Assembly (NCBI GenBank): GCA_951406725.2 | Contig: OX597820.1 | Coordinates: forward strand, 120,838,001 to 120,902,000 | Source of the DNA: Octopus vulgaris | Lineage: Eukaryota | DNA: 64,000 nt | Direction of reading: 5' to 3' | Shown: piece after piece, positions 5,424-57,808 of the stretch | Layout of the letters: every line of letters starts with the position of its first letter | Position numbering within the stretch: position 1 is the first letter of the stretch | Translations under genes and position numbers: made by a program | Notes under the pieces: generated by a model | The model's database searches: none | What the model saw: only the letters and a program-made list of their open reading frames with translations | Told to the model about the DNA's origin: nothing

Positions 5424-6100
5424 GGGTGTTTTTTACGTGCCACCTGCACAGGTGCCAGACAAAGCTGGCGAACGGCCACGAACGGACGGTGTTTTTACGT
5501 GTCACCAGCACGGGGGCCAGCCGAGGCTGGCAACGGACGCGAACGGATGGTGCTTTTACGTGCCACCGACACGGTTGCCAGACAGAGCTGGCAAACGGCC
5601 ACGAGCGGACGGTGCTTTTACGTGTCACCGGCACGGGGGCCAGCCGAGGCTGGCAACGGACACGAACGGATGGTGCTTTTACGTGCCACCGACACGGGGC
5701 CAGACAGAGCTGGCAAACGGCCACGAACGGATGGTGCTTTTACGTGCCACCGACACGGGGCCAGACAGAGCTGGCAAACGGCCACGAACGGACGGTGCTT
5801 TTACGTGTCACCGACACGGGGCCAGGCGAGGCTGGCAACGAACACGAACGGATGGTGCTTTTACGTGCCACCGACACGGGGCCAGGCAGAGCTGGCAAAC
5901 GGCCACGAGCGAATGGTGCTTTTACGTATCACCGGCACGGGTGCCAGACGAGGCTGGCAACGAACACGAACGGATGGTGCTTTTACGTGCCACCGACACG
6001 GCGGGGCCAGGCAGAGCTGGCAAACGGCCACGAGCGAATGGTGCTTTTACGTATCACCGGCACGGGTGCCAGACGAGGCTGACAGCGGACACGAACGGAT
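5424..6100 (-). repeat. ~61-bp tandem array, 11 units, within the RTE 3' UTR
   Basis: 11 copies of ggtg(c/t)ttttacgt..cacc..cac; two unit types (cagagctggcaaacggcc and cgaggctggcaacg(g/a)ac) mostly alternate. Confidence 0.95.
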
Positions 6101-6149
6101 GGGTCACTTAACCCCTGCTTTCTGATATATGATTTGATTTTGATTGTTC

Positions 6150-6745
6150 TCACTGGTCTTGCCGGGTCTTCTCACGCACAGCATACTTCCATAGGTCTCG
6201 GTCTCTGGTCATTTCCTTGGTGAGACCTAGAGTTCGAAGGTCGTGCTTCACCACCTCGACCCAGGTTTTCCTGGGTCTACCTCTTCCACAGGTCCCCTCA
6301 ACTGCCAGGGTGTGGCACTTTTTCACACACCTATCTTCATCCATTCTCACCACATGACCATACCAGCGCAATCGTCTCTCTTGCACACAACATCTGATTC
6401 CTCTTAGGTCCAACATTTCTCTCAAGGTACTTACACTCTGTCGACTATGAACACTGACATTACACATCCAACGGAGCATACTAGCTTCATTTCTCGCGAG
6501 CTTACGCATGTCCTCAGCAGTCACGGCCCATGTTTCACTGCCATGTAGCATGGCTGTTCGTACACATGCATCATACAGTCTGCCTTTTACTCTGAGCGAG
6601 AGGCCTTTAGTCACCAACAGAGGTAAGAGCTCCCTAAACTTTGCCCAGGCTATTCTTACTCTAGCCGTTACACTTTCAGCACACCCACCCCCACTACTGA
6701 CTTGGTCACCAAGATAACGGAAGCTATCAACTACTTCTAGGTATT
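6150..6745 (-). pseudogene. RTE reverse transcriptase C-terminal fragment
   Basis: LEVVDSFRYLG, KGRLYDACVRTAMLHGSETW, RRLRWYGHVVRM and RGRPRKTW are RTE motifs; the ORF-track N-terminus is just (TA)n. Confidence 0.9.
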
Positions 6746-6775
6746 GGTTATATATATATATATATTTTATATATA

Positions 6776-7440
6776 TATTGTTGTATTTCGGAATGGTCAT
6801 TTTGCCAGTTTAGCCAATATATGTAATCAGGCAAACTACAACGAGACTTGTGCAGCTCTCCATGGGATCATCCGGTTCCGTCGAGGTTACCGACCTCATT
6901 GGACTATTCATACTCCACTAGCTCCATATACATTTTCCTAACCTCAAGAGATGCTTCTGCAGAGATGAAGCCCTGATACATAACAAGAGCGTAAATAAAT
7001 CCTCTTTAGAACGAACTAGAAAAGATCTACACCAATATTTCTCAAGCCTAAGCCTATCTATTACTTTTGAAAATTCCCACAAAACCACTAACTTTTTACC
7101 CGTAAGTTTAAACTTAGAAACCTCCCAGCACTCCACTTTTCACAAAGCTAACCAATACCTTAAATACTTAAACATTTACTCCAATCACCCCAAATCCACC
7201 TTTGATAACATAATTAAGAGTATCTCGATCCGTATATCTGACATCTCTTTCACTAAGCAAGTATTCAATAACCACGCCTGATATTACGACCAAGCGCTCG
7301 CTGCCAGAGGCTTCTCCTAACAAATAAAATACGTCACTAATACTAGGCGCAATCAACATATATCTCACATCACATCACAACGACATGCCAACCAGCAGCA
7401 TCACAACAGACCACACATACGGTATGCTAGAATCCAGGCA
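6776..7440 (+). mobile_element. Penelope-like element RT fragment preceded by a pLTR-like piece
   Basis: Frameshifted translation includes YLNIYSNHPKSTFDNIIKSISIRISDISF...YYDQAL (PLE RT thumb-like); 6776-6817 matches the element at about 13407-13449. Confidence 0.65.
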
Positions 7441-9350: not shown

Positions 9351-10139
9351 CATGCATATCTTTCATTCAGATATTACGCTTGCTGCGAAATACATTCTAA
9401 CTTATTTTGACAAGACAGTTTCTATTTGTTTCATTCAGTGATATTTTAGAATTGGGATATTCTAGAATTATATTTTTATTCGTATTTGATCAAACCTTTA
9501 TTCGTTAAACGTATATTCTCATCGGTGAGTACAGTATTTTCCCCCAAATAAGATAAAGAGGAAAGGCGAGGGAAAATTTACGATCCACTTATAGATCACT
9601 CGGTCCCATAAACAAATCTTTAGTGAATGTTTATCAGCGTGGATGCAATTTCTTCTATAAATGGAATGCATTTAAGTGAACAGAGAACCAATGCAACCCA
9701 ATGGAGTCAAGTGCCCTTGTAACAGTAACGTTGAACTAAGTCACATCTTTGAAAAATGTTTCTTTAAGGAATACTGAGCCAGATATACTGTGTCGAGGCA
9801 GATTCGTTGATGTAACAACAAGATTAACGATTGATTAAAGCGAAATAGGATTTCTTATTTTGTATTTGACCTCTTATCTTAATTCAAATTCTAACCTGAT
9901 TAAATTTCCAGATGTTGATGGCGATCGGATGAAAGATGAAAACATTGCTATTATACTATATTTTACAGTCCTATATTCAAGAGATGTGGAATTATTTACA
10001 TTATTTACATTTGACGGATATTTGACCTCATCTTGTTCGTTGTTAACACAACGTGTCGGCTGATATACCCTCCAACCTTCATCAGGTGTCTTAGGGAAAT
10101 TTCGAACCTGGGTTCTCATTCCTAAGGTATATTTCGATC

Positions 10140-10392
10140 TCCTTCTTCTTCTTCTTCTTCTTCTTCTTCTTCTTCTTCTTCTTCTTCTTCTTCTTCTTCT
10201 TCTTCTTCTTCTTCTTCTTCTCTTCTTCTTCTTCTTCTTCTTCTTCTTCTTCTTCTTCTTCTTCTTCTTCTTCTTCTTCTTCTTCTTCTTCTTCTTCTTC
10301 TTCTCCTCCTCCTCCTCCTTCTCCTCCTCCTCCTTCTTTTTCTTCTTCTTCTTCGTCTTCTTCTTCTTCTTCGTCTTCTTCTTCTTCTTCGT

Positions 10393-10478
<86 letters not shown>

Positions 10479-10486
10479 CATTATTA

Positions 10487-10570
<84 letters not shown>

Positions 10571-10573
10571 GTA

Positions 10574-10644
<71 letters not shown>
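10140..10644. repeat. Compound (CTT)n/(CCT)n/(ATT)n microsatellite, ~500 bp
   Basis: Direct observation. Confidence 0.97.
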
Positions 10645-10647
<3 letters not shown>

Positions 10648-10777
10648 TTCACTGCCTGGAATCGAACTCGGAATCTTGGGGTTAGTAGCCCGCGCTCTTA
10701 ATCACATGGGGCGTAGTGGTAATAATAACATCGAAATATATCTTAGGAATGAGAACCCAGGTTCGAAATTTCTCCAA

Positions 10778-10823
10778 GACACCTGATGAAGGCTGGAGGG
10801 TATATCAGCCGAAACGTTGTGTT
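10778..10823 (+). ncRNA. Minimal type I hammerhead ribozyme motif
   Basis: gacac-CTGATGA-a-ggctg(gagggtatat)cagcc-GAAAC-GTT-gtgtt; palindromic aacgtt as stem III. Confidence 0.75.
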
Positions 10824-11259
10824 AACAACAAACAAGATGAGGTCAAATATCCGTCAAATGTAAATAATGTAAATAATGTACATAATGTATTCTATATTTT
10901 GTTCTGAAGATCAGTGATACTCTGTTCGTATTCAAGAGTATTTCTTATGCCAGTATACTGTAAAAACAAATATATACTGAGCCGTTACCTTCGCATTTTA
11001 AAGATATAAGAAAGGAATATAGCTGCTATGTCTACCTTGCTCAGGCACCACGAAGGAATTTTATCGCTGCTTCATGACATCGGTGTCGTTTAGAGCCGGG
11101 TCGATCCTTTTTCATCAGATTGAGGATTAATGACACTTTGCAAATATCCGTAGGGTTTTTGTTTTGAAAGGATCGATCGGTGTGAAAAGCGTGATGAAGT
11201 TTATGTAATTCTTCGTTGGTAAATCAAACTCGGTCACATTTCTGTTGTCACTTTTAATG

Positions 11260-17440: not shown

Positions 17441-18135
17441 AGATAAGACAGTAAGGTGTGATTTGAGGGAGATTTGGCTGCTATTTCTACCATGTCTAGC
17501 TGCCATGTAGGGGTCTCCCTCATAGGCTCATACATACATATATACATAGATAAGACAGTAAGGTGTGATTTGGGGGAAATTTGGCTGCTATTTCTACCAG
17601 GTCTAGCTGCCATGTAGGGGTCTCCCTCATAGGCTCATACATACATATATACATAGATAAGACAGTAAGGGGTGATTTGGGGGAAATTTGGCTGCTATTT
17701 CTACCAGGTCTAGCTGCCATGTAGGGGTCTCCCTCATAGGCTCATACATACATATATACATAGATAAGACAGTAAGGTGTGATTTGGGGGAAATTTGGCT
17801 GCTATTTCTACCAGGTCTAGCTGCCATGTAGGGGTCTCCCTCATAGGCTCATACATACATATATACATAGATAAGACAGTAAGGTGTGATTTGGGGGAAA
17901 TTTGGCTGCTATTTCTACCAGGTCTAGCTGCCATGTAGGGGTCTCCCTCATAGGCTCATACATACATATATACATAGATAAGACAGTAAGGTGTGATTTG
18001 GGGGAAATTTGGCTGCTATTTCTACCAGGCCTAGCTACCATGTAGAGGTCCCCCTCATTGGCTCATATATATATACATACATAAGACAGTAAGGTGTGAT
18101 TTGAGGGAGATTTGGCTGCTGTTTCTACCAGGTCT
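17441..18135. repeat. 107-bp tandem array, ~6.5 units
   Basis: agataagacagtaaggtgtg starts at 17441, 17548, 17655, 17762, 17869, 17976 and about 18080. Confidence 0.97.
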
Positions 18136-26491: not shown

Positions 26492-27230
26492 ATCGAAGAA
26501 CAGATAGAGGTCGGAATGTAACAACCTCATTATATGTTGGAGACCTTTATAAGTCATCGAAAGGTCTCCAAATATCTAAGATTAGTATTAGTGAAATATA
26601 AGGTGGTCACGTGGCAGAATTCTTAGCTCGTAGAGCTAACAAATTATGAGCGGCATTTCATCCATCTTAACGTTCTGAGTTCAAGTACGACCGAGGTCGA
26701 CTTTGATTTTAAGGTCTGTTCCTTGTTCGCTAATGTTTTGTACTCAACTCTTCCACACATCACGTCATACGATGCGCACATTTAAAAACGAAAACATTTA
26801 ATTTCCACATAAATATGCTAAATTATGTGACTGTCAGCAAGGTAAGATGTCTGATATTAGTGTAAAGGGAAACTAATGAACAAACAATGCCTTTTTTTTA
26901 CATGCAGTTACTATATTGACAAACTAGTTACCCAAAACATTCTCAAATGGAATGGATTTTCTTGAAGAAAATGCCAATGCAAGATCGTATAGCTCTTATT
27001 TACAACAACTATGGATTATATTGTGCTAGTCATTCTTACTCAATTATTGGCTCAGATTAATTTTGTTTTTTTCGAGGATGACAAATAGTTCCAGTTGAGC
27101 CCTGGGGTTGATATAATCAACTTGCCTCCTCCTTTAAAATTCCAGGCTTTTGTGCGAAAATTTGCAACCAATGTTAGAGAAATAACAATGTGTGTAAAGC
27201 ATAGCACTTAAGTAAAAATAGAATTCATAC

Positions 27231-28069
27231 CTATTTCTTTACTACCCACAAGGGGCTAAACATAGAGTGGACAAACAAGGACAGACAAAGGGATTAAGTC
27301 GATTATATCGACCCCAGTGCGTAACTGGTACTTAATTTATCGACCCCAAAAGGATGAAAGGCAAAGTCGACCTCGGCGGAATCTGAACTCAGAACGTAAC
27401 GGCTGACGAAATACCGCTAAGCATTTCGCCCGGCGTGCTAACGATTCTGTCAGCCGCCAAATAGAATTAATACCTATTTCTTTATTACCTACAAGGGGCT
27501 AAACATAGAGTGGACGAACAAGGACTGACAAAGAGATTAAGTCGATTACATCGACCCCAGTGCGTAACTGGTACTTAATTTATCGACTCCGAAAAGATGA
27601 AAGGCAAAGTCGACCTCGGCGGAATTTGAACTCACAACGTAACGGCAGACGAAATACCTATTTCTTTACTACCCACAAGGGGCTAAACACAGAGAGGACA
27701 AACAAGGACAGACATAGGTATTAAGTCGATTACATCGACCCCAGTGCGCAACTGGTACTTAATTTATCGACTCCGAAAAGATGAAAGGCAAAGTCGACCT
27801 CGGCGGAATTTGAACTCACAACGTAACGGCAGACGAAATACCTATTTCTTTACTACCCACAAGGGGCTAAACACAGAGAGGACAAACAAGGACAGACATA
27901 GGTATTAAGTCGATTACATCGACCCCAGTGCGCAACTGGTACTTAATTTATCGACCCCGAAAGGATGAAAGGCAAAGTCGACCTCGGCGGAATCTGAACT
28001 CAGAACGTAACGGCTGACGAAATACCGCTAAGCATTTCGCCCGGCGTGCTAACGTTTCTCCCTGTCGCC
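27231..28069 (-). mobile_element. SINE-A cluster: monomer plus head-to-tail trimer
   Basis: Units 27231-27458 and 27474-28069 (184-bp period); aaatagaatt(c/a)atac at 27216, 27459 and 28070. Confidence 0.92.
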
Positions 28070-33090: not shown

Positions 33091-36000
33091 TTACCTGGTG
33101 CCAAACATACCCATCTTGTATGCCACAGGCTTCCATCTTTTCACAAACATATCTCGTGACAGACACCTCTTCTCCAGCCTGATTTTGCTACTGAGGTGGT
33201 AACTAAAAAAGTTAATCAACCCCTGGCCTGAGACAAAGGTGCCTGTCACTATACCTTTCGTACGCGTCTTCCATACTGTTTCTTTCAGTATGGCTACTAC
33301 ACAGAAAAAACAAGCCTTTCTTTCCCTGTTAAGGAAAGGCGGCGGCACAATCTCGATGATAGACTCAGCTGATAGCTGTACTCTTCCTATCACTGACAAC
33401 AGTTGTTCAACAAAAGCTATCAGTCCCGATAACTCCGGACACTCCACGAATGCGTGCAAGACGGTCTCCCTATCCTGCTAACATCGCGGGCATGTCGGCG
33501 AGACGGCACTACCGTGCCTTGACAGCTTGTCGCGAACAGGTAAAGCCGCACGGAAACAATGCCAGGCCAGGGATTTCTGGTAATTATCCAGATACCCCGG
33601 CCCGAACGTCCTCCGGAATAGGTTGACCAACTGATTTTCATCGTAGCCCAGGGTCTCCCCAAGGCGTCTTCGGACTTAATCTCCACTAACCCGCTATAGA
33701 AATCCGTGGTGGAACTCCTGTTGCCGGCGTTGCCCACCCGAGATAGTAGCTGGAGCGCCTGACGGCACTCCAAATGTCATTCACTCAGTTTAGGTCTCCG
33801 CTTGATCCATGCACCGATGTCCGTTAGGGATGTTAACTGGGGAAGGTAGAACCGGACGTGCGGCGACCACACCTGCTCTCCATCCAGGTAAAGCCAGAGG
33901 TGCCTCAACCTTAACGCGAGTTTTCGCATCCTCAGCCAAGGCATCCCTAGTCCACCCTTTAGCGGTTTCTGGCAGCAGACAGAGCGCTTTACAAGTGGCT
34001 TTCCTCCTTTCCACAAAAATGGGAAAAGGATTCTCTCCAACTTGTTCAGCCACAAATCGGGGCAAGGCACCACGGTCAGACGGTAGGTGATTACTGATGC
34101 TATAAACATCTGCACCACCTCCGCCTTCCCTAGCAGGGATAACGCCCGCCCAGACCAGGTCTGGGTTAGAGCGGTCACCTTGTTGGCCACCTCACTCCAA
34201 TTTTTCTCAATCTGGAGGTCTGGCCCGAACCAGACTCCGAGCAGCTTAACAGGACCTTCCGTCCAACGCCCTACGACGTTATTGGACGGCATCGGCTTGC
34301 CCCTCCAGGTGCCGAGTTGCAAACCGACAAACTTGTCCTTGTTAACCTTTGCTCCTGCCACCGCCTCGTAGCTTTTGATGGCCTCTTCCACCACTGGAAG
34401 CTGGCCTTCGTCTGCCACGATGATGGAGGTGTCATCCGCATACGCCGTAGCTCCTCTTCCACACCATAGATCATGCGGCGCGCCCCCTAGTGCCTCCAAC
34501 TTCCGCAGCAAAGGCTCAAGAGCCAATACGTATAGGAGCGAGGACAGGGGACACCCTTGACGAACTGAACGCTCGATCCTGAACGGCTTCGAAAAGGAAC
34601 CGTTCACCTTGACTACAGACTCGATGTCGCTATACAAAGCAGCGATCCAACCTCGAAAGGTCGGGCCTAGGCCAGCCTCTCCGAGGACCGCCGCCATGTA
34701 CCGATGGTCGACCCTATCAAATGCTTTGGACTGGTCTAAATGTACCAGCGCTCCCCCTGCGCCAGAAAGCTTCCCCACCCTCTCTAAGGAGTAGCGTATA
34801 AGGTGGAGATTGTCGTGGATCGTTCTGCCGGGGATAGCGCACGTTTGCGCTTCCTCGACAAGTTTGTCCACGACCCGCGCCAACCTTTTTGCTAGCACCT
34901 TGGCCAGAATCTTTAACTCTGTGTTTAACAGAGTTATGGGCCTAAAGTTCCCTATCTCGTCCCCCTTGTTCGGGTCCTTCCTGATCAACGTCACCGCTCC
35001 CCGGCTCGCAGACTTGGGAATTCTCCCATTCTGCTGCCAGTTGGCGTAGACGCTAGCCAGCAGGTGCCCGAACAAGTCTGGCATACTTCTATAAAATTCA
35101 TAGGGCAGACCATCGAGACCCGGCGACTTCTCCCCGGGGCACTTGCCCAACACCTCGATTACTTCCTCGGCTGTGATTGGCCCTTCACAGCACTCAGCCT
35201 CTCGTGTCGAGAGGCGCGGGCCACCAGACAGGAAGTCCCTAAGGGCCTCACCATGATCCAGCGTCCCGCACCTCCCGAACAACTCGGCGAAGTGCTTGTG
35301 AAGTGCCTCACACATCTCGTCCCGCTTCTTGATCGTGCATCCGTTTTCATCAACAAGAGACCCAATTGTGGCATCGTTTCCACGCTGTGTTTCTATCGTA
35401 CGGGCCCATCCGGCAACATTAATTCCCTCACGGCCCAATGCTCGTACTTTAGCCCGGACTCTACATCCCTCATGTTTGGCTTTGAGGTGACGGTCTAATG
35501 CCGTTCTCGCCGCTAAAATGTGAGATGCAGAGCCCAACCTCAACGCCTCCTCTAAGTTCTTAACTAGTTGCCCTTCTATTCTAGCCCTATCTAGTCTTAG
35601 TTGTTTACTAAATCTAATGGACTCGAATCGAATGGCTCTTTTGAAGGTGAACCACCACCGGTTATTAACCACGGCTCCGGTTAACGCCCTCTGCACTAAC
35701 ACCTTAATCCGGCTACGGTATGCCTCGCGTGTCAAAATAGACTTGTTCAGCTTCCAGTAGCCGGTTCCTATCTTAAGTGTGCTATCTATGTCCAGTCTAC
35801 ACGTGACCATTCTATGGTTAGTATAGGGCACCTGGACGAGCTGTGGACAACTAAAACTAGACTTATCTCTAGTTCTTATCACTATCCTGTTTAGATAAGA
35901 CTTGAACCTTCCGTCGCCACTCATCCAGGTCCACTCTGGGACGTTCGGATGGTCAAGTCTGTAACGATCTGCTAGCTGAAACCGCTTAAGCAGATCCACG

Positions 36001-36491
36001 AGACGTGAGTTCACTTTCCTATAGATCGAGCCAACGCTATCGATGTGTACGTCAACGATAGCATTAAAGTCCCCTAATATCACTAAAGTCTTCGACGTCA
36101 CGAGAAAGCCCTCTAGGCGCCGATAAAAATCAGTTTGGAAACCTCTAGCACAAGGTGCATAGAGTCCGATCAACCTGAAGGCCTTACTGCTGTATGTCAC
36201 ATCAAGGACGACCAGCCCACCTTCTGGGTCTACATAGACTGTACTTGTCTGTAGAGCCAAGTCTTTACGGATCAGTACCACTACGCCCCCTCGCCCTCCG
36301 GTCTGGCCAGGAGACATGATTTTCTCGTAGCCATTCAGGAGAGGCGAGAAGGTTTGTAGGCTGTCCAGCTTGGTCTCTGTAGCAACCATCACATGTATAT
36401 CATGTGATCTGAGGTCGTCGAGGAAACAAGCCTGCTTCCACTTCGAACTCAGACCACGCACATTTAAACAACCAAGGTTAAGCGAAGCCAT
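33091..36491 (-). pseudogene. ORF2: APE endonuclease, reverse transcriptase and C-terminal CCHC finger (904 aa open, then stops and a frameshift)
   Basis: NVRGL, ETK, GDFN; KSPGLDG, FRPITLLN, DQSKAFDRV, RQGCPLS, YADD; CPRC...HAFVEC; premature TGA at 33777. Confidence 0.93.
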
Positions 36492-37935
36492 TACAAAAAG
36501 TAAAAGTTCTACTTACATTTCGTTGGAGAGGTGGGGCCGACCTCACCACACGTTTGTGGGCCCCTTCTTTCTCCTCCTTCTTCAGATAGTCCGGCAAGTT
36601 CGCGATATGCCGGATGGCGTTTGGGTGTCTGTCTTTTAATTGTTTGAACGTTGTTTCCGCAATCCACGCGTGTCTATTTCGATCTTTGTATTTGTTGTAC
36701 AGTCTTGCTGACTGATGCTGAACCACAATATCGTTTATGTATTTGTCTTGTGTGTCGAATTCAATTAATATGAGTTCATTTTCTTTTTTTGTCTTCTTTT
36801 TCTGGGCCAGTTGAGCGGGATTTTTTTCCGTGTCTGTGGTGTGTCTTTGTTTTTATTATTTTTTGTAGGGGATGTGGACGGGGATGCTGCACGAATTCTT
36901 TTACGAACTGGTTTAAATCCCCCCTCTGATACCTCCATGGTATCGTCTGGGGTAGCAATAGTTTGTTCGGTAGGCACCGCAGTTTTTAGGGGGGTGGGAG
37001 GTTTTAATAGTGTAGGGGTTTGTGAGTGCGAGGGCTGGGTTTTTTCTTCAGTCTGTTTTGGGGTTGGCACCGTAACAGCAGGAGTGGGATTTTTTTGTTT
37101 TTGTAGGGGTAGGTGTGTTTGCAAGGGTAGGGACTTTTTTATTATCTGAGGGGCCTGGTGTCTGCGGTTTCTTTTGCTTGTCTGGACAGTCTACACGAAT
37201 GTGGCCCTTTTTGCCGCAGGCGTAACAGGTAGGTTTTCGGCCTTCGACCTGTACCCTGAGGGCTACGTTCTCGCCCACGAGCACCCTCTCAGGAAGGAGC
37301 TGCAGGTCCTCCGCTGTTCCTTGAATTAATATATTAATGTTACGCCCGAGCCAAAATCGAGGGGTAGAGCATGTTACTTCTAGTATTTTTATTTTGTCCG
37401 CCCTTTTATATAACAGGGCGGCCACTACCTCTACCGGATCTACTTCCGGCGGGGCTTCTACAATCCTGACCCGGGACGTCCTGCGTCCCCTATAGCTTGG
37501 GAAAAGTACCACCTCCTTGGTTTTTAGGGGGTTCACAGAATGCCCGCGGGCCATTTCTTCCCCCGAGAAGCGGACATCCACAGTGCCATATGCCCTTCCC
37601 CTGGCGATGTACACGATGTCCTTCCAAATCGGGGACAGGCATTTCTCGATGGTGCTTTTTTCAAAGTGTTTGAACCTTCTGCTTTGTGGACAGAAAGTTT
37701 TAAACACTACGGTCCGCTTCTCGGTCTCCATGATACTGGCAGAGGGTGATATTTTAACATCACCACCCTCCTCTTGCATTCTTTTAAATAGCTCGACGAG
37801 CTGGTTGACATCGATGTTAATGTTTTCGGTAGCCACTGCGGCTACCGCAGAAAATTTTTTAACATTGCTCTCCTCAAGAGCACTACTTTCGTGAATAATT
37901 TCAACAGACATTATTCTGTTGAAATTAGACAACAC
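36478..37935 (-). pseudogene. ORF1, Gag-like nucleic-acid-binding protein, split across three ORF pieces
   Basis: CYACGKKGHIRVDC zinc knuckle, P/T/K-rich linker; pieces 37048-37935, 36765-37124 and 36478-36726; last piece overlaps the ORF2 start by 14 nt. Confidence 0.85.
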
Positions 37936-38739
37936 AAAAATTACGAGTATTGGTTTCCCACAAAACTGGGAAACCTATAGAAAGTTTTTCTTCCAAAGTA
38001 GTTCAAAAAAGCAGTTCAAAAATTCCAATTCCCACCCCCATTCGGGGGAGGGGCACGAAAATAGTCTGGCAGGACTATATATAGTCACGTAAATAAAAAG
38101 CCACAATGGCTAACAGTTCAACGGTAAGAAATTATCCAATTATTCCCCGGTAAAACCGGAGAACAAGACAGTTCAGCAACGTTTAAAGACAAATTTTCAG
38201 TAGTAGAAATTCAACAATTAACAACACAGCAAAACTCTTACCGGGAAGCAAACGCGTCCAAACCGTAGTACGGTAGGCAAAGTCACTCTTCAGTCAGTGA
38301 GGTTAGCAAGCTACTTACCACACGGCCACTCCTATATATTCGTAGTTTTGCAGCATTTGTGTAACCATGATGTTATGATGATCTCATGAAGTAGCAATCT
38401 TCATCTACACTGTTTTGTAAATATACAACTGTATTGCATTGCGCGCAGGATACATATTTGTGCGCATATTGTGAACATGGTTCATGATAGACTGAAATTA
38501 CTATTACATGATGAAGGCTGTGAAACTACCGTGGCAAAGAAATACATTAAATACATGAAAAATACATAAATATATTACAAATGGTTAAATAAATACATTG
38601 CCACCTCATACCATCTGACATTTTATGGGTTATATACTTCTCATGTAGTAATTTCATGGAACGAAATCCCTGGATTTCAGTTGCTTATATCGTAGTATTA
38701 CACTCCTTTGTATTAGATTATTGTGTGGTCTTGCAGCCG

Positions 38740-42679: not shown

Positions 42680-42730
42680 TGCACAACGGAGCACATAGGT
42701 GCAAAACTCAGAATAATATACCATTCTATT

Positions 42731-43400
42731 CATTATTTACATTTTGACGGATATTGCTTTTCATCTTGTTAACTCAACGTTTGGGCCGATATACCCTCCA
42801 GCCTTCATCAGGTGTCTTGGGGAAATTTAAAATCTAGGTGCTTATTCCTAATGTATCTTTCCATGTCGCTGTTGTTGTTATTATTATTATTAAGGTCACT
42901 GCCTATAATCTAACTCGGACTCTTGGGGTTGGTAGCCCGCGCTCTTAACCACTACGCCATATATCCGCGTGCAATTACGAAGTGAATTTTAGGGCTTATA
43001 AATCTAATATTTTCCTATCCTTCCTTATTACCGGTTCCCATATGTTATTCGTCGCTACACTCGGTCTGCTTAGGAGGTTGTTGTTTCCTAGAATATATGC
43101 TACTTCTATTGACGAAAATATCTTCACAAACTGTTATTCAGAGTTCCACGCGACCGTTATCAAACAGCTCATTATTATATTTTACTTACGATTCTGTAAT
43201 AATGTTGGACTATTAACGGTTTCTGGTGGTCGTCATCTATTTGCGACAAATGAGAATATTTAGTTTGGTACACAAGGCTTTTTCTCAACTTGTGATTGGG
43301 AAATTAGATGTGCAAACGGTTTCGGTCTAAATGGATAAATGTGTAATGCAGTCTACACCATACACTTGCAAGAAATGTTGCAACTGTCATTTTACTCCAT
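42731..43400 (-). mobile_element. PLE 3' end: GIY-YIG-like C-terminus, tRNA-like head, (AAT)n, degenerate hammerhead
   Basis: Translation ...IEVAYILGNNNLLSRPSVATNNIWEPVIRKDRKILDL* ends at 42996; tRNA-like at 42894-42960; hammerhead at 42771-42816; upstream limit approximate. Confidence 0.65.
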
Positions 43401-51483: not shown

Positions 51484-51746
51484 CGTTTTGGGATTTGGTT
51501 TGCAAGATTCTTTATATGAGTTCGTGTGTTGAAGCATATTCTGTTGTGTCTGGGGAGAGTCATTATATTTTAGTGCCTTATTATTTAACACACTCACCGG
51601 TAAAATTCCCGCCTCTTTTTTATTAATTTTTTTAATTTTTATTTTTTATTTTTAAAAAATAAGAAAAATAAGAAATAAGTGGAAATTTTACCGGTGAGTG
51701 TGTTAAATAATAAGGCACTAAAATAGAATGACTCTCCCCAGACACA
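51484..51746. mobile_element. PLE-type inverted pLTR pair
   Basis: About 51544-51609 is mirrored at about 51680-51746; left extension resembles 13360-13430; (TA)n flanks. Confidence 0.65.
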
Positions 51747-57409: not shown

Positions 57410-57808
57410 GACCGGCAGCCATACTTCCGTGTACATACGTAGGGGCAGCTAAAATACATGGAAGGCGACCGGCAGCCATACATCCGCCTACATACGTAGG
57501 GGCAGCTAAAGTACATGGAAAGCGACCGGCAGCCATACTTCCGTGTACATACGTAGGGGCAGCTAAAATACATGGAAAGCGACCGGCAGCCATACTTCCG
57601 TGTACATACGTAGGGGCAGCTAAAATACATGGAAAGCGACCGGCAGCCATACATCCGCCTACATACGTAGGGGCAGCTAAAGTACATGGAAAGCGACCGG
57701 CAGCCATACTTCCGTGTACATACGTAGGGGCAGCTAAAATACATGGAAGGCGACCGGCAGCCAAACATCCGCCTACATGCGTAGGGGCAGCTAAAATACA
57801 TGGAAAGC
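57410..57808. repeat. 57-bp tandem array, 7 units
   Basis: gaccggcagcc at 57410, 57467, 57524, 57581, 57638, 57695 and 57752. Confidence 0.97.

What the first reader, a model, noticed from the sequence alone, without database searches (positions are those of the whole stretch)
9970..10885. Mobile module of tRNA-like Pol III promoter, microsatellite and hammerhead ribozyme, in inverted pair
Seen: on the minus strand a tRNA-like head (B-box gagttcgattcc at 10658-10669) is followed by (AAT)n/(AAG)n, a hammerhead (10045-10090, GAAA changed to GACA) and aatgtaaat repeats. The inverted partner keeps an A-box remnant ggcgtagtggt and an intact-core hammerhead (10778-10823). No ORF is present. Established: minimal dimerising hammerheads occur in PLE pLTRs and retrozymes, and schistosome Sm-alpha combines a tRNA-like head with a hammerhead. 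Inference: a Pol III-driven, self-cleaving, PLE-mobilised small RNA element. I do not know of a description in cephalopods.
Basis: partly seen in the sequence, partly recalled or inferred. Interest (0 to 1): 0.78.

Follow-up and report, generated by a model that had tools for sequence, protein, structure and literature searches.

The report
Penelope retrotransposon end with tRNA head
This is a broken, head-to-head pair of end repeats from a protein-coding Penelope-type jumping gene, a known layout; the unusual part is a tRNA-derived piece at the start of that repeat, which likely acts as the element's promoter and would, if confirmed, mean that RNA polymerase III can drive a protein-coding retrotransposon.

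Summary
It is the terminal repeat (pLTR) of a Penelope/Poseidon-type retrotransposon with roughly 10^4 copies. The tRNA-like head starts 29 nt after the stop of an RT + GIY-YIG-type ORF, and the hammerhead encodes that ORF's first codons. The window locus (9965-10887) is one insertion: two 5'-truncated pLTRs head to head, a 25-nt tail on one arm and a 13-bp target duplication (12/13). This layout is known for these elements. Neither arm keeps both promoter boxes, so the locus is probably dead.

What looks new is the tRNA-derived A/B-box head. It forms the pLTR's 5' end: 14 of 17 copies with non-palindromic junctions that reach it stop at -7..+5 of tRNA +1 (P 1.6e-10). The 831-codon majority ORF has no run of four T (P 0.012-0.025). 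None of 39 relatives carries such boxes. Best reading: a captured tRNA serves as the internal promoter, likely for Pol III. The polymerase, the cleavage and any small RNA are untested, and the RNA-seq available was uninformative.

The parts
9952..9964 (.). left copy of 13-bp target-site duplication
   Evidence: 12/13 identical to 10888-10900
9966..9990 (-). PLE 'tail', present on this arm only; it is the next stretch of the element's ORF
   Evidence: tail runs on into the ORF in tandem copies; tail on exactly one arm in 24 of 32 pairs
9994..10011 (-). two 9-nt AATGTAAAT repeats, frame-preserving; tail-less copies end here
10045..10090 (-). minimal type I hammerhead with core change GAAA to GACA, predicted inactive
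9960..10119 (-). first 54 codons of the PLE ORF (ATG at 10119-10117), running through ribozyme and tail into flank
   Evidence: aligns with N-terminus of homolog P0003
10138..10644 (-). expanded (AAT)n then (AAG)n microsatellite; in most copies (AAT)n(AAC)n of variable length
10645..10705 (-). tRNA-derived head, positions about 15-75, with B box at 10658-10669; A box mostly lost
10706..10720 (+). head-to-head junction and A-box remnant (tRNA positions 9-19) of the right copy, whose positions 20-75 are deleted
10749..10887 (+). first 47 codons of the PLE ORF (ATG at 10749), including ribozyme and three 9-nt repeats; no tail
10778..10823 (+). minimal type I hammerhead, intact core: stem I 5 bp, stem II 5-6 bp, palindromic AACGUU in place of stem III, predicted cut after 10818
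10888..10900 (.). right copy of target-site duplication
42722..43110 (-). third, older copy (79-88% identity): last 36 codons of the PLE ORF, 3' UTR, full head with A box, short microsatellite, ribozyme with GAAA changed to CAAA

Best explanation
The locus is one dead insertion of two head-to-head, 5'-truncated end repeats (pLTRs) of a protein-coding Penelope/Poseidon-type retrotransposon, whose repeat begins with a tRNA-derived A/B-box sequence that likely serves as the element's internal, probably Pol III, promoter. Shown: the module lies 29 nt after the stop of an RT + GIY-YIG-type ORF and also directly before that ORF's start. The ATG, hammerhead, 9-nt repeats and tail are the ORF's first codons. 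Copies pile up at the tRNA's first bases. Inferred by analogy with Anolis Poseidon: the element's protein nicks both target strands and starts reverse transcription internally, at the end of the 9-nt repeats and at the end of the tail. When it uses these sites in the 5' pLTR, the cDNA runs back only about 250 nt to the RNA's 5' end, which gives the abundant ORF-less module. Two such cDNAs join head to head, often at the small palindrome that spans tRNA +1. Inferred: that RNA 5' end is a transcription start set by the A and B boxes. The hammerhead would cut only as a dimer or with protein help, and cutting would sever the start codon from the ORF.
For: The head follows the ORF end in 28 of 30 ORF-end-seeded loci by BLAST, at 29-31 nt from the stop in 20 of 30 (4 at other distances, 6 not parsed). 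The module precedes the ORF start in tandem in L288, L291, L293, L298, L301, L304, L305 and L315. The majority ORF is open for 831 codons from the pLTR ATG and is 57% identical to homolog P0003, including the ribozyme-encoded peptide. The 120 listed homologs carry RVT_1 and/or PF26215/PF28514, three also GIY-YIG PF01541 (atlas). An inverted partner is present in 57 of 90 core-seeded copies. The tail is on exactly one arm in 24 of 32 pairs. TSD-like repeats flank 17 of 51 pairs against 4% of mismatched controls. 5' ends: of 90 copies, 49 reach the head, 19 stop inside it, 23 stop at -16..+5 and 7 go on upstream; for non-palindromic junctions 14 of 17, P 1.6e-10; for solo copies 8 of 10, P 4e-6. 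The head keeps tRNA spacing (T8, A14, G15, T33, GTTCGA at 53-58) and aligns to the genome's own tRNA-Arg at 49/74, z 7.3. The majority CDS has no T4 run: expected 4.4 / 3.0 / 3.2, P 0.012 / 0.022 / 0.025. Eight other retroelement ORFs from this genome have 1-10 such runs, and 3 of 57 relatives have none. The architecture and internal RT start come from PMC11167929, PMC3846280 and PMC8557442.
Against: There is no direct evidence of a start site or of the polymerase. Three RNA-seq runs showed no pile of molecule ends and equal depth on both strands. Some tandem copies run upstream past the head into the previous ORF end (L293, L298, L301), and 7 of 30 copies pass the boundary, so longer read-through templates exist. 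The T4 result is modest: it rests on a majority sequence compared with single copies, G4 runs are also absent (mononucleotide P 0.048, codon controls P 0.27), and a natural copy (L127) has 3 T4 runs. D. virilis Penelope uses a LINE-like TATA-less internal promoter. A Pol III transcript would be uncapped and still has to be translated. Clade placement rests on domain order and motifs, not on a tree, and Pfam did not call the endonuclease in the two C-terminal pieces scanned.
Confidence: 0.6

Rival explanations
1. Same PLE pLTR, but transcribed by Pol II from an internal promoter as in D. virilis Penelope. The tRNA piece is a captured tRNA or SINE remnant that happens to sit at, or was co-opted as, the start. 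Its anticodon-loop stretch reads TACTAAC and could act as a branch point of a 5' UTR intron.
For: Penelope has an internal TATA-less promoter and an intron 46 bp after the start. The tRNA stems have decayed and ARAGORN of 92 full heads at normal stringency. A capped RNA solves translation. The motif TACTAAC and a pyrimidine-rich CCAG 26 nt downstream are in the head majority (branch-point consensus recalled).
Against: The A and B boxes are intact in the master while the stems are not. The boundary lies where a type 2 Pol III start is expected (recalled). The ORF lacks T4 runs. No GT..AG joint with RNA reads appears among the 15 joints shown in each lay (134 and 35 more were not shown).
Confidence: 0.2
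2. The boundary is not a start site. Long read-through transcripts are cut at the tRNA-like structure (RNase P-like), or the cDNA folds back or stalls at the short palindrome spanning tRNA +1.
For: Many junctions are perfect palindromes centred there. Palindromes at pLTR 5' ends with self-priming are described (PMC3846280). Several ends lie exactly at +1/+2.
Against: The pile-up holds for non-palindromic and solo copies (14 of 17, 8 of 10). Ends spread from -7 to +5, not only +1. The acceptor and T stems are largely unpaired in the majority, and the window head folds no better than shuffles (z -0.65).
Confidence: 0.1
3. One reading: a self-sufficient Pol III, self-cleaving small RNA element (SINE or retrozyme like Sm-alpha) that replicates from its own solo copies using the PLE protein in trans.
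For: ORF-less copies dominate (83 of 90 core-seeded copies stop short of the ORF and its 3' UTR). RNA and contig depth over the module is about 100-fold that over the ORF start. Intact solo copies have both boxes.
Against: There is no separate subfamily: four differently seeded groups give the same majority sequence. No head-to-tail monomer arrays were seen. In Anolis Poseidon the template needs ORF sequence beyond the RT start sites, which solo modules lack. The ribozyme core is intact in only 58 of 106 copies and diverges almost like its neighbours (3.6% against 4.9%).
Confidence: 0.1

Closest known systems
Poseidon from Anolis carolinensis (PAc; Frangieh et al. 2024, PMC11167929, parts 1-2 of 4 read)
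   Same: Single ORF with RT and C-terminal GIY-YIG; hammerhead overlapping the ORF start with the cut site downstream of the ATG; tail equals ORF sequence between two internal RT start sites; both strands nicked and extended.
   Different: No tRNA-like head appears in the parts read; its promoter is only called 'likely in the pLTR'.
Adineta vaga Penelope families (Arkhipova et al. 2013, PMC3846280, passages) and general EN+ PLE layout (Craig et al. 2021, PMC8557442, passages)
   Same: Inverted pLTRs, tail on one end, TSD around the whole unit, pLTR holding the first codons, palindrome at the pLTR 5' end, solo pLTRs.
   Different: TATA/Inr-like motifs are proposed there; here A and B boxes and a trinucleotide microsatellite leader.
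Minimal hammerheads of PLEs (Cervera and de la Pena 2014, PMC4209133, part 1 of 4 and passages)
   Same: No stem III, unpaired base before stem II, short stem I; pairs 100-700 bp apart on opposite strands were already noted in Schistosoma.
   Different: No mention of molluscs, octopus or tRNA in that text.
TRIMp3: Cassandra, Helenus, Ajax (Kojima 2024, PMC10886601, passages)
   Same: A tRNA- or 5S-derived Pol III promoter inside a terminal repeat, with boxes kept and RNA function lost; origin by SINE insertion proposed.
   Different: Those are short non-autonomous LTR elements, and the paper argues that autonomous partners must use Pol II. Here the head is in the repeat of the autonomous, protein-coding PLE.
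Schistosome Sm-alpha and animal non-LTR retrozymes (PMC8490949 and PMC7229834 passages; bioRxiv 10.64898/2026.07.22.740005 part 1 of 5 and passages; Ferbeyre 1998 not read)
   Same: Type I hammerhead in a short repeat; retrozymes are argued to derive from PLE pLTRs; Sm-alpha is SINE-like (its tRNA-type promoter is recalled, not read).
   Different: Those are tandem non-coding monomers that make circles. This module is dispersed, mostly inverted, and indistinguishable from the autonomous pLTR.

Membership tests
Penelope-like element (EN+, Penelope/Poseidon type) | single ORF with RT and C-terminal GIY-YIG endonuclease | tested here: met
   831-codon majority ORF; RVT_1 hit; homologs carry PF00078/PF26215/PF28514, some PF01541; Pfam did not call the endonuclease directly in the two pieces scanned
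Penelope-like element (EN+, Penelope/Poseidon type) | pLTR on both sides of the ORF in partial tandem, holding the first codons | tested here: met
Penelope-like element (EN+, Penelope/Poseidon type) | inverted 5'-truncated copy, tail on one end, TSD round the unit | tested here: met
   57 of 90 inverted; 24 of 32 one-sided tails; TSD 17 of 51 against 4%; window 12/13
Penelope-like element (EN+, Penelope/Poseidon type) | phylogenetic placement in Penelope/Poseidon rather than Neptune or Nematis | tested here: inconclusive
   no extra Cys-rich linker between RT and EN in the ORF; no reference tree built
Minimal type I hammerhead | CUGANGA and GAAA core, stems I and II, palindrome for dimer stem III, NUH site | tested here: met
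   right arm; left arm has a core change; Rfam gives no hit
Minimal type I hammerhead | self-cleavage | not testable with these tools
   no pile of read ends in RNA-seq, which is a weak test
tRNA-derived SINE | tRNA-derived head with A and B boxes | tested here: met
   relaxed ARAGORN 11 calls among 92 heads against 1 in 1000 shuffles
tRNA-derived SINE | non-autonomous unit with its own lineage, separate from the autonomous partner | tested here: not met
   the head is a fixed part of the autonomous element; same majority sequence in all groups
tRNA-derived SINE | Pol III transcription | not testable with these tools
   indirect only
Non-LTR retrozyme | head-to-tail tandem monomers, each with a hammerhead | tested here: not met
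   head-to-head pair in the window; inverted or solo copies in the sampled loci
Non-LTR retrozyme | circular RNA monomers | not testable with these tools
   no small-RNA or circRNA run was listed
TRIMp3 (Cassandra/Helenus/Ajax) | small-RNA-derived promoter inside the terminal repeat | tested here: met
TRIMp3 (Cassandra/Helenus/Ajax) | non-autonomous LTR retrotransposon with true LTRs and primer-binding site | tested here: not met
   the element is an autonomous-type PLE
Sm-alpha | sequence homology to schistosome Sm-alpha | not tested
   no Sm-alpha sequence was supplied by a tool

The most novel reading that the evidence does not exclude
This Penelope lineage captured a tRNA as its promoter and is transcribed end to end (about 2.9 kb) by RNA polymerase III. 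It has purged T4 terminators from its ORF and translates its RT-endonuclease from an uncapped RNA whose leader is a tRNA-like head plus an unstructured (AAU)n(AAC)n run. That would be an autonomous, protein-coding retrotransposon driven by Pol III, with about 10^4 dispersed Pol III promoter remnants as a by-product.
Probability: 0.28. Interest if true: 0.82.

Novelty: new variant of a known kind. Interest (0 to 1): 0.52.

Why it matters
The locus itself is ordinary PLE debris. The family matters because PLE promoters are barely known (one dissected, in D. virilis), and Pol III promoters in retroelements are thought to be limited to short non-autonomous forms (PMC10886601). A tRNA head that defines the 5' end of an autonomous PLE gives a direct test of whether Pol III can drive a protein-coding retrotransposon. 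It also shows how SINE-like, ribozyme-bearing repeats such as Sm-alpha or retrozymes could arise from a pLTR. It further explains thousands of 250-nt 'SINE-like' copies as short products of the internal reverse-transcription start described in 2024.

Tried and rejected
Rfam on the window and on 9900-10950 found no hammerhead or tRNA hit; ARAGORN default found none. The RT fragment at window 6853-7338 was first suspected as the partner. It belongs to an unrelated PLE family (my notes and script labels call it 'Naiad', which its C-terminal endonuclease contradicts). An independent SINE with its own TSD was rejected, as was a separate non-autonomous subfamily on majority sequence (no tree built). 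A cis dimer of the two ribozymes was rejected by geometry, and energy folding did not recover the dimer fold. Selection on the ribozyme in inserted copies gave at most a weak signal. Sequencing runs: no RNA holder listed. Three raw RNA runs of organism B were laid; they were unstranded in effect, showed no begin/end piles, and their depth followed that of the contigs. Viral contigs gave no relatives. Earlier findings: none. The tRNA source is not settled: only 30 tRNA genes of 6 amino-acid types were compared; Arg scored best, with Thr and Cys close. Lunse et al. 2017 was not held. Repbase and Dfam could not be consulted.

Full report
Observation. Rfam and ARAGORN do not call the ribozyme or the tRNA. 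The right ribozyme has CUGAUGA, a 5-6 bp stem II after one unpaired A, GAAAC-GUU with the palindrome AACGUU in place of stem III, and a 5-bp stem I. This matches the minimal hammerhead described for PLEs (PMC4209133, part 1 read). The left ribozyme has GACA. The genome is 2.8 Gb in 227 contigs.

Copy number. The 34-nt core has 1,690 exact matches against 0 for the control. It is exact in 14 of 109 core-spanning copies found through the head or ORF, which suggests about 13,000 copies. No copy lay in 268 kb of loci fetched for other reasons, in line with that density.

The module is a pLTR. Of 30 loci seeded on the head, 25 continue into the ribozyme body. Several loci, and a third copy in the window (42722-43110), share sequence upstream of the head that reads as the end of an ORF. 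Seeding on that ORF end, 28 of 30 loci show the head by BLAST and 28 of 30 the body, with tRNA +1 at 29-31 nt from the stop in 20 of 30. [quoted passage not shown] Its 120 best listed homologs carry the PLE-associated domain set (atlas). Seeding on the ORF start shows head, microsatellite, ribozyme and tail directly before it in eight loci, and shorter pLTR pieces in most others. The majority ORF is open for 831 codons from an ATG 34 nt before the ribozyme core, with minimum depth 15 in the 5' part. It aligns from residue 11 with homolog P0003 at 57%, including the ribozyme-encoded peptide. So the arms in the window each hold the first 47-54 codons. Anolis Poseidon has the same overlap, and its tail lies between two internal RT start sites (PMC11167929, parts 1-2 read).

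The locus is one insertion. The tail is on the left arm only (9966-9990) and a 13-bp duplication (12/13) flanks the whole unit. Across copies, an inverted partner is present in 34 of 59 and 57 of 90 (the two sets share 30 loci). The tail is on exactly one arm in 24 of 32 pairs, on both in 1 and on neither in 7. TSD-like repeats were found in 17 of 51 pairs with a rough edge finder, against 4% of mismatched controls. This is the layout in PMC3846280 and PMC8557442 (passages). At this locus the left copy lacks most of the A box and has a broken ribozyme, and the right copy lacks the B box. The two ribozymes face away from each other on opposite strands, so one transcript cannot carry both. It would instead fold into a 157-bp hairpin (inference).

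The tRNA head. The majority of 143 distinct head copies keeps canonical spacing, with an A box at 8-18 and a B box at 51-62, while the D, anticodon, T and acceptor stems are partly unpaired. Relaxed ARAGORN makes 11 calls among 92 full heads against 1 in 1000 shuffles. Among 30 tRNA genes of the genome the best match is tRNA-Arg(TCG), 49/74, z 7.3, with Arg(TCT), Thr and Cys close. Of 79 related PLE loci from metagenomes, 39 had enough downstream sequence; 20 show a hammerhead motif and none an A+B box pair. These relatives are only about 29-48% identical, and DNA around the closer homologs (55-68%) could not be fetched.

The head marks the 5' boundary. I took 90 of the first 100 listed exact-core places on contig C1, chosen without regard to upstream sequence. 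Of these, 14 end in the body, 27 at the microsatellite, 42 in or at the head and 7 upstream. Of 30 that reach tRNA +6, 23 stop at -16..+5 (four of these are palindrome-extended alignments). Leaving out palindromic junctions, 14 of 17 stop at -7..+5, against 13% expected from the truncation rate inside the head (P 1.6e-10); for solo copies 8 of 10, P 4e-6. Contig depth in two public runs also steps up several-fold at this place, though the tool warns that such depth is no copy number. The simplest reading is that most template RNAs begin here. Some do not: 7 of 30 pass the boundary, and three tandem copies run into the previous ORF.

Which polymerase. A Pol III start just upstream of the A box fits the boundary (established for tRNA-type promoters; recalled). 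Pol III stops at four or more T (recalled), so I tested the ORF for such runs as a prior prediction. The majority CDS has none; P is 0.012, 0.022 and 0.025 under three shuffles (an earlier, shallower majority gave 0.013 and 0.06). G4 is also absent but is explained by codon content (P 0.27). Eight other retroelement ORFs of the genome have 1-10 runs, and a decayed copy of this family has 3. Relatives have an excess overall (525 against 343), and 3 of 57 long ones have none. This is suggestive, not proof. Against it, D. virilis Penelope uses a LINE-like internal promoter with an intron (PMC2377424, abstract and passages), the head contains a TACTAAC, and an uncapped RNA must still be translated.

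No separate small-RNA lineage. Four seeding strategies give the same body majority. The ribozyme core is intact in 58 of 106 copies and diverges 3.6% against 4.9% elsewhere. RNA-seq of organism B shows both strands equally, no pile of ends, and ORF-start depth about 100-fold below the module. That looks like passive transcription of dispersed copies and cannot test a start site or a cut.

Literature. Nine searches found no description of a tRNA-derived sequence in a PLE pLTR, nor of this family. The 2026 O. vulgaris repeat paper and its one held supplement do not mention hammerheads (the supplement store gave no answer, so other files may exist). The giant squid paper lists 235 hammerhead hits without analysis, so cephalopod hammerheads are not unknown. 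The retrozyme preprint has no mention of tRNA or octopus in its main text (its supplements are closed). Repbase, Dfam, Ferbeyre 1998 and Lunse 2017 were not seen, and the family may be catalogued there. The nearest concept is TRIMp3, whose author argues that autonomous partners must use Pol II (PMC10886601, passages).

Verdict. PLE identity about 0.97; head as transcription start about 0.75; Pol III for at least the short templates about 0.55; Pol III for the full coding RNA about 0.28. New variant of a known kind; interest 0.52.

Noticed in passing
window 6853-7338 (+): RT fragment of a second, unrelated PLE family (43% to the L079 ORF). Its relatives include a young set with near-identical 506-aa frames (L079, L085) and copies with asparagine-rich inserts and a Cys-rich linker before a C-terminal GIY-YIG (L083, L084).
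   Followed up: partly
window 33777-37974 (-): L1/Tx1-type element with a 911-aa open endonuclease + RT frame and an upstream 308-aa frame with a CCHC knuckle; looks recent.
   Followed up: partly
L288-L315, about 230-300 nt into the ORF: About half of the 30 loci seeded on the ORF start break off 230-300 nt into the ORF, and many of these are joined to a further pLTR piece at differing breakpoints (two share one junction). This may mark a preferred template jump or RNA end; it is partly biased by the query.
   Followed up: partly
window 10681-10687 (-), head positions 33-39: The anticodon-loop equivalent reads TACTAAC, the recalled branch-point consensus, with a pyrimidine-rich CCAG 26 nt downstream; no spliced joint was seen among those shown.
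   Followed up: partly
head positions 7-15 of the family majority: A tiny upstream frame (ATG GCG TAG) overlaps the A box; the microsatellite and the 9-nt repeats are all multiples of three.
   Followed up: no
window 5431-6102 and 6150-6809 (-): An 11-copy 61-bp tandem array lies directly after the 3' end of an RT-like frame; similar tails recur in other loci (L010, L122).
   Followed up: no
window 51547-51744: About 200-bp near-perfect hairpin, MITE-like; weak Rfam miRNA match far below the gathering score.
   Followed up: no
L005, L025, L011, L317, L367: Head-less copies often sit in the (AAT)n tail of other retroelements, which suggests insertion at, or microhomology joining to, AAT repeats.
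   Followed up: no
window 17441-18135, 27216-28026, 57410-57808: Tandem arrays of 107, 184-243 and 57 bp; the 184-243 bp units look like tandem SINE copies (SINE label recalled).
   Followed up: no
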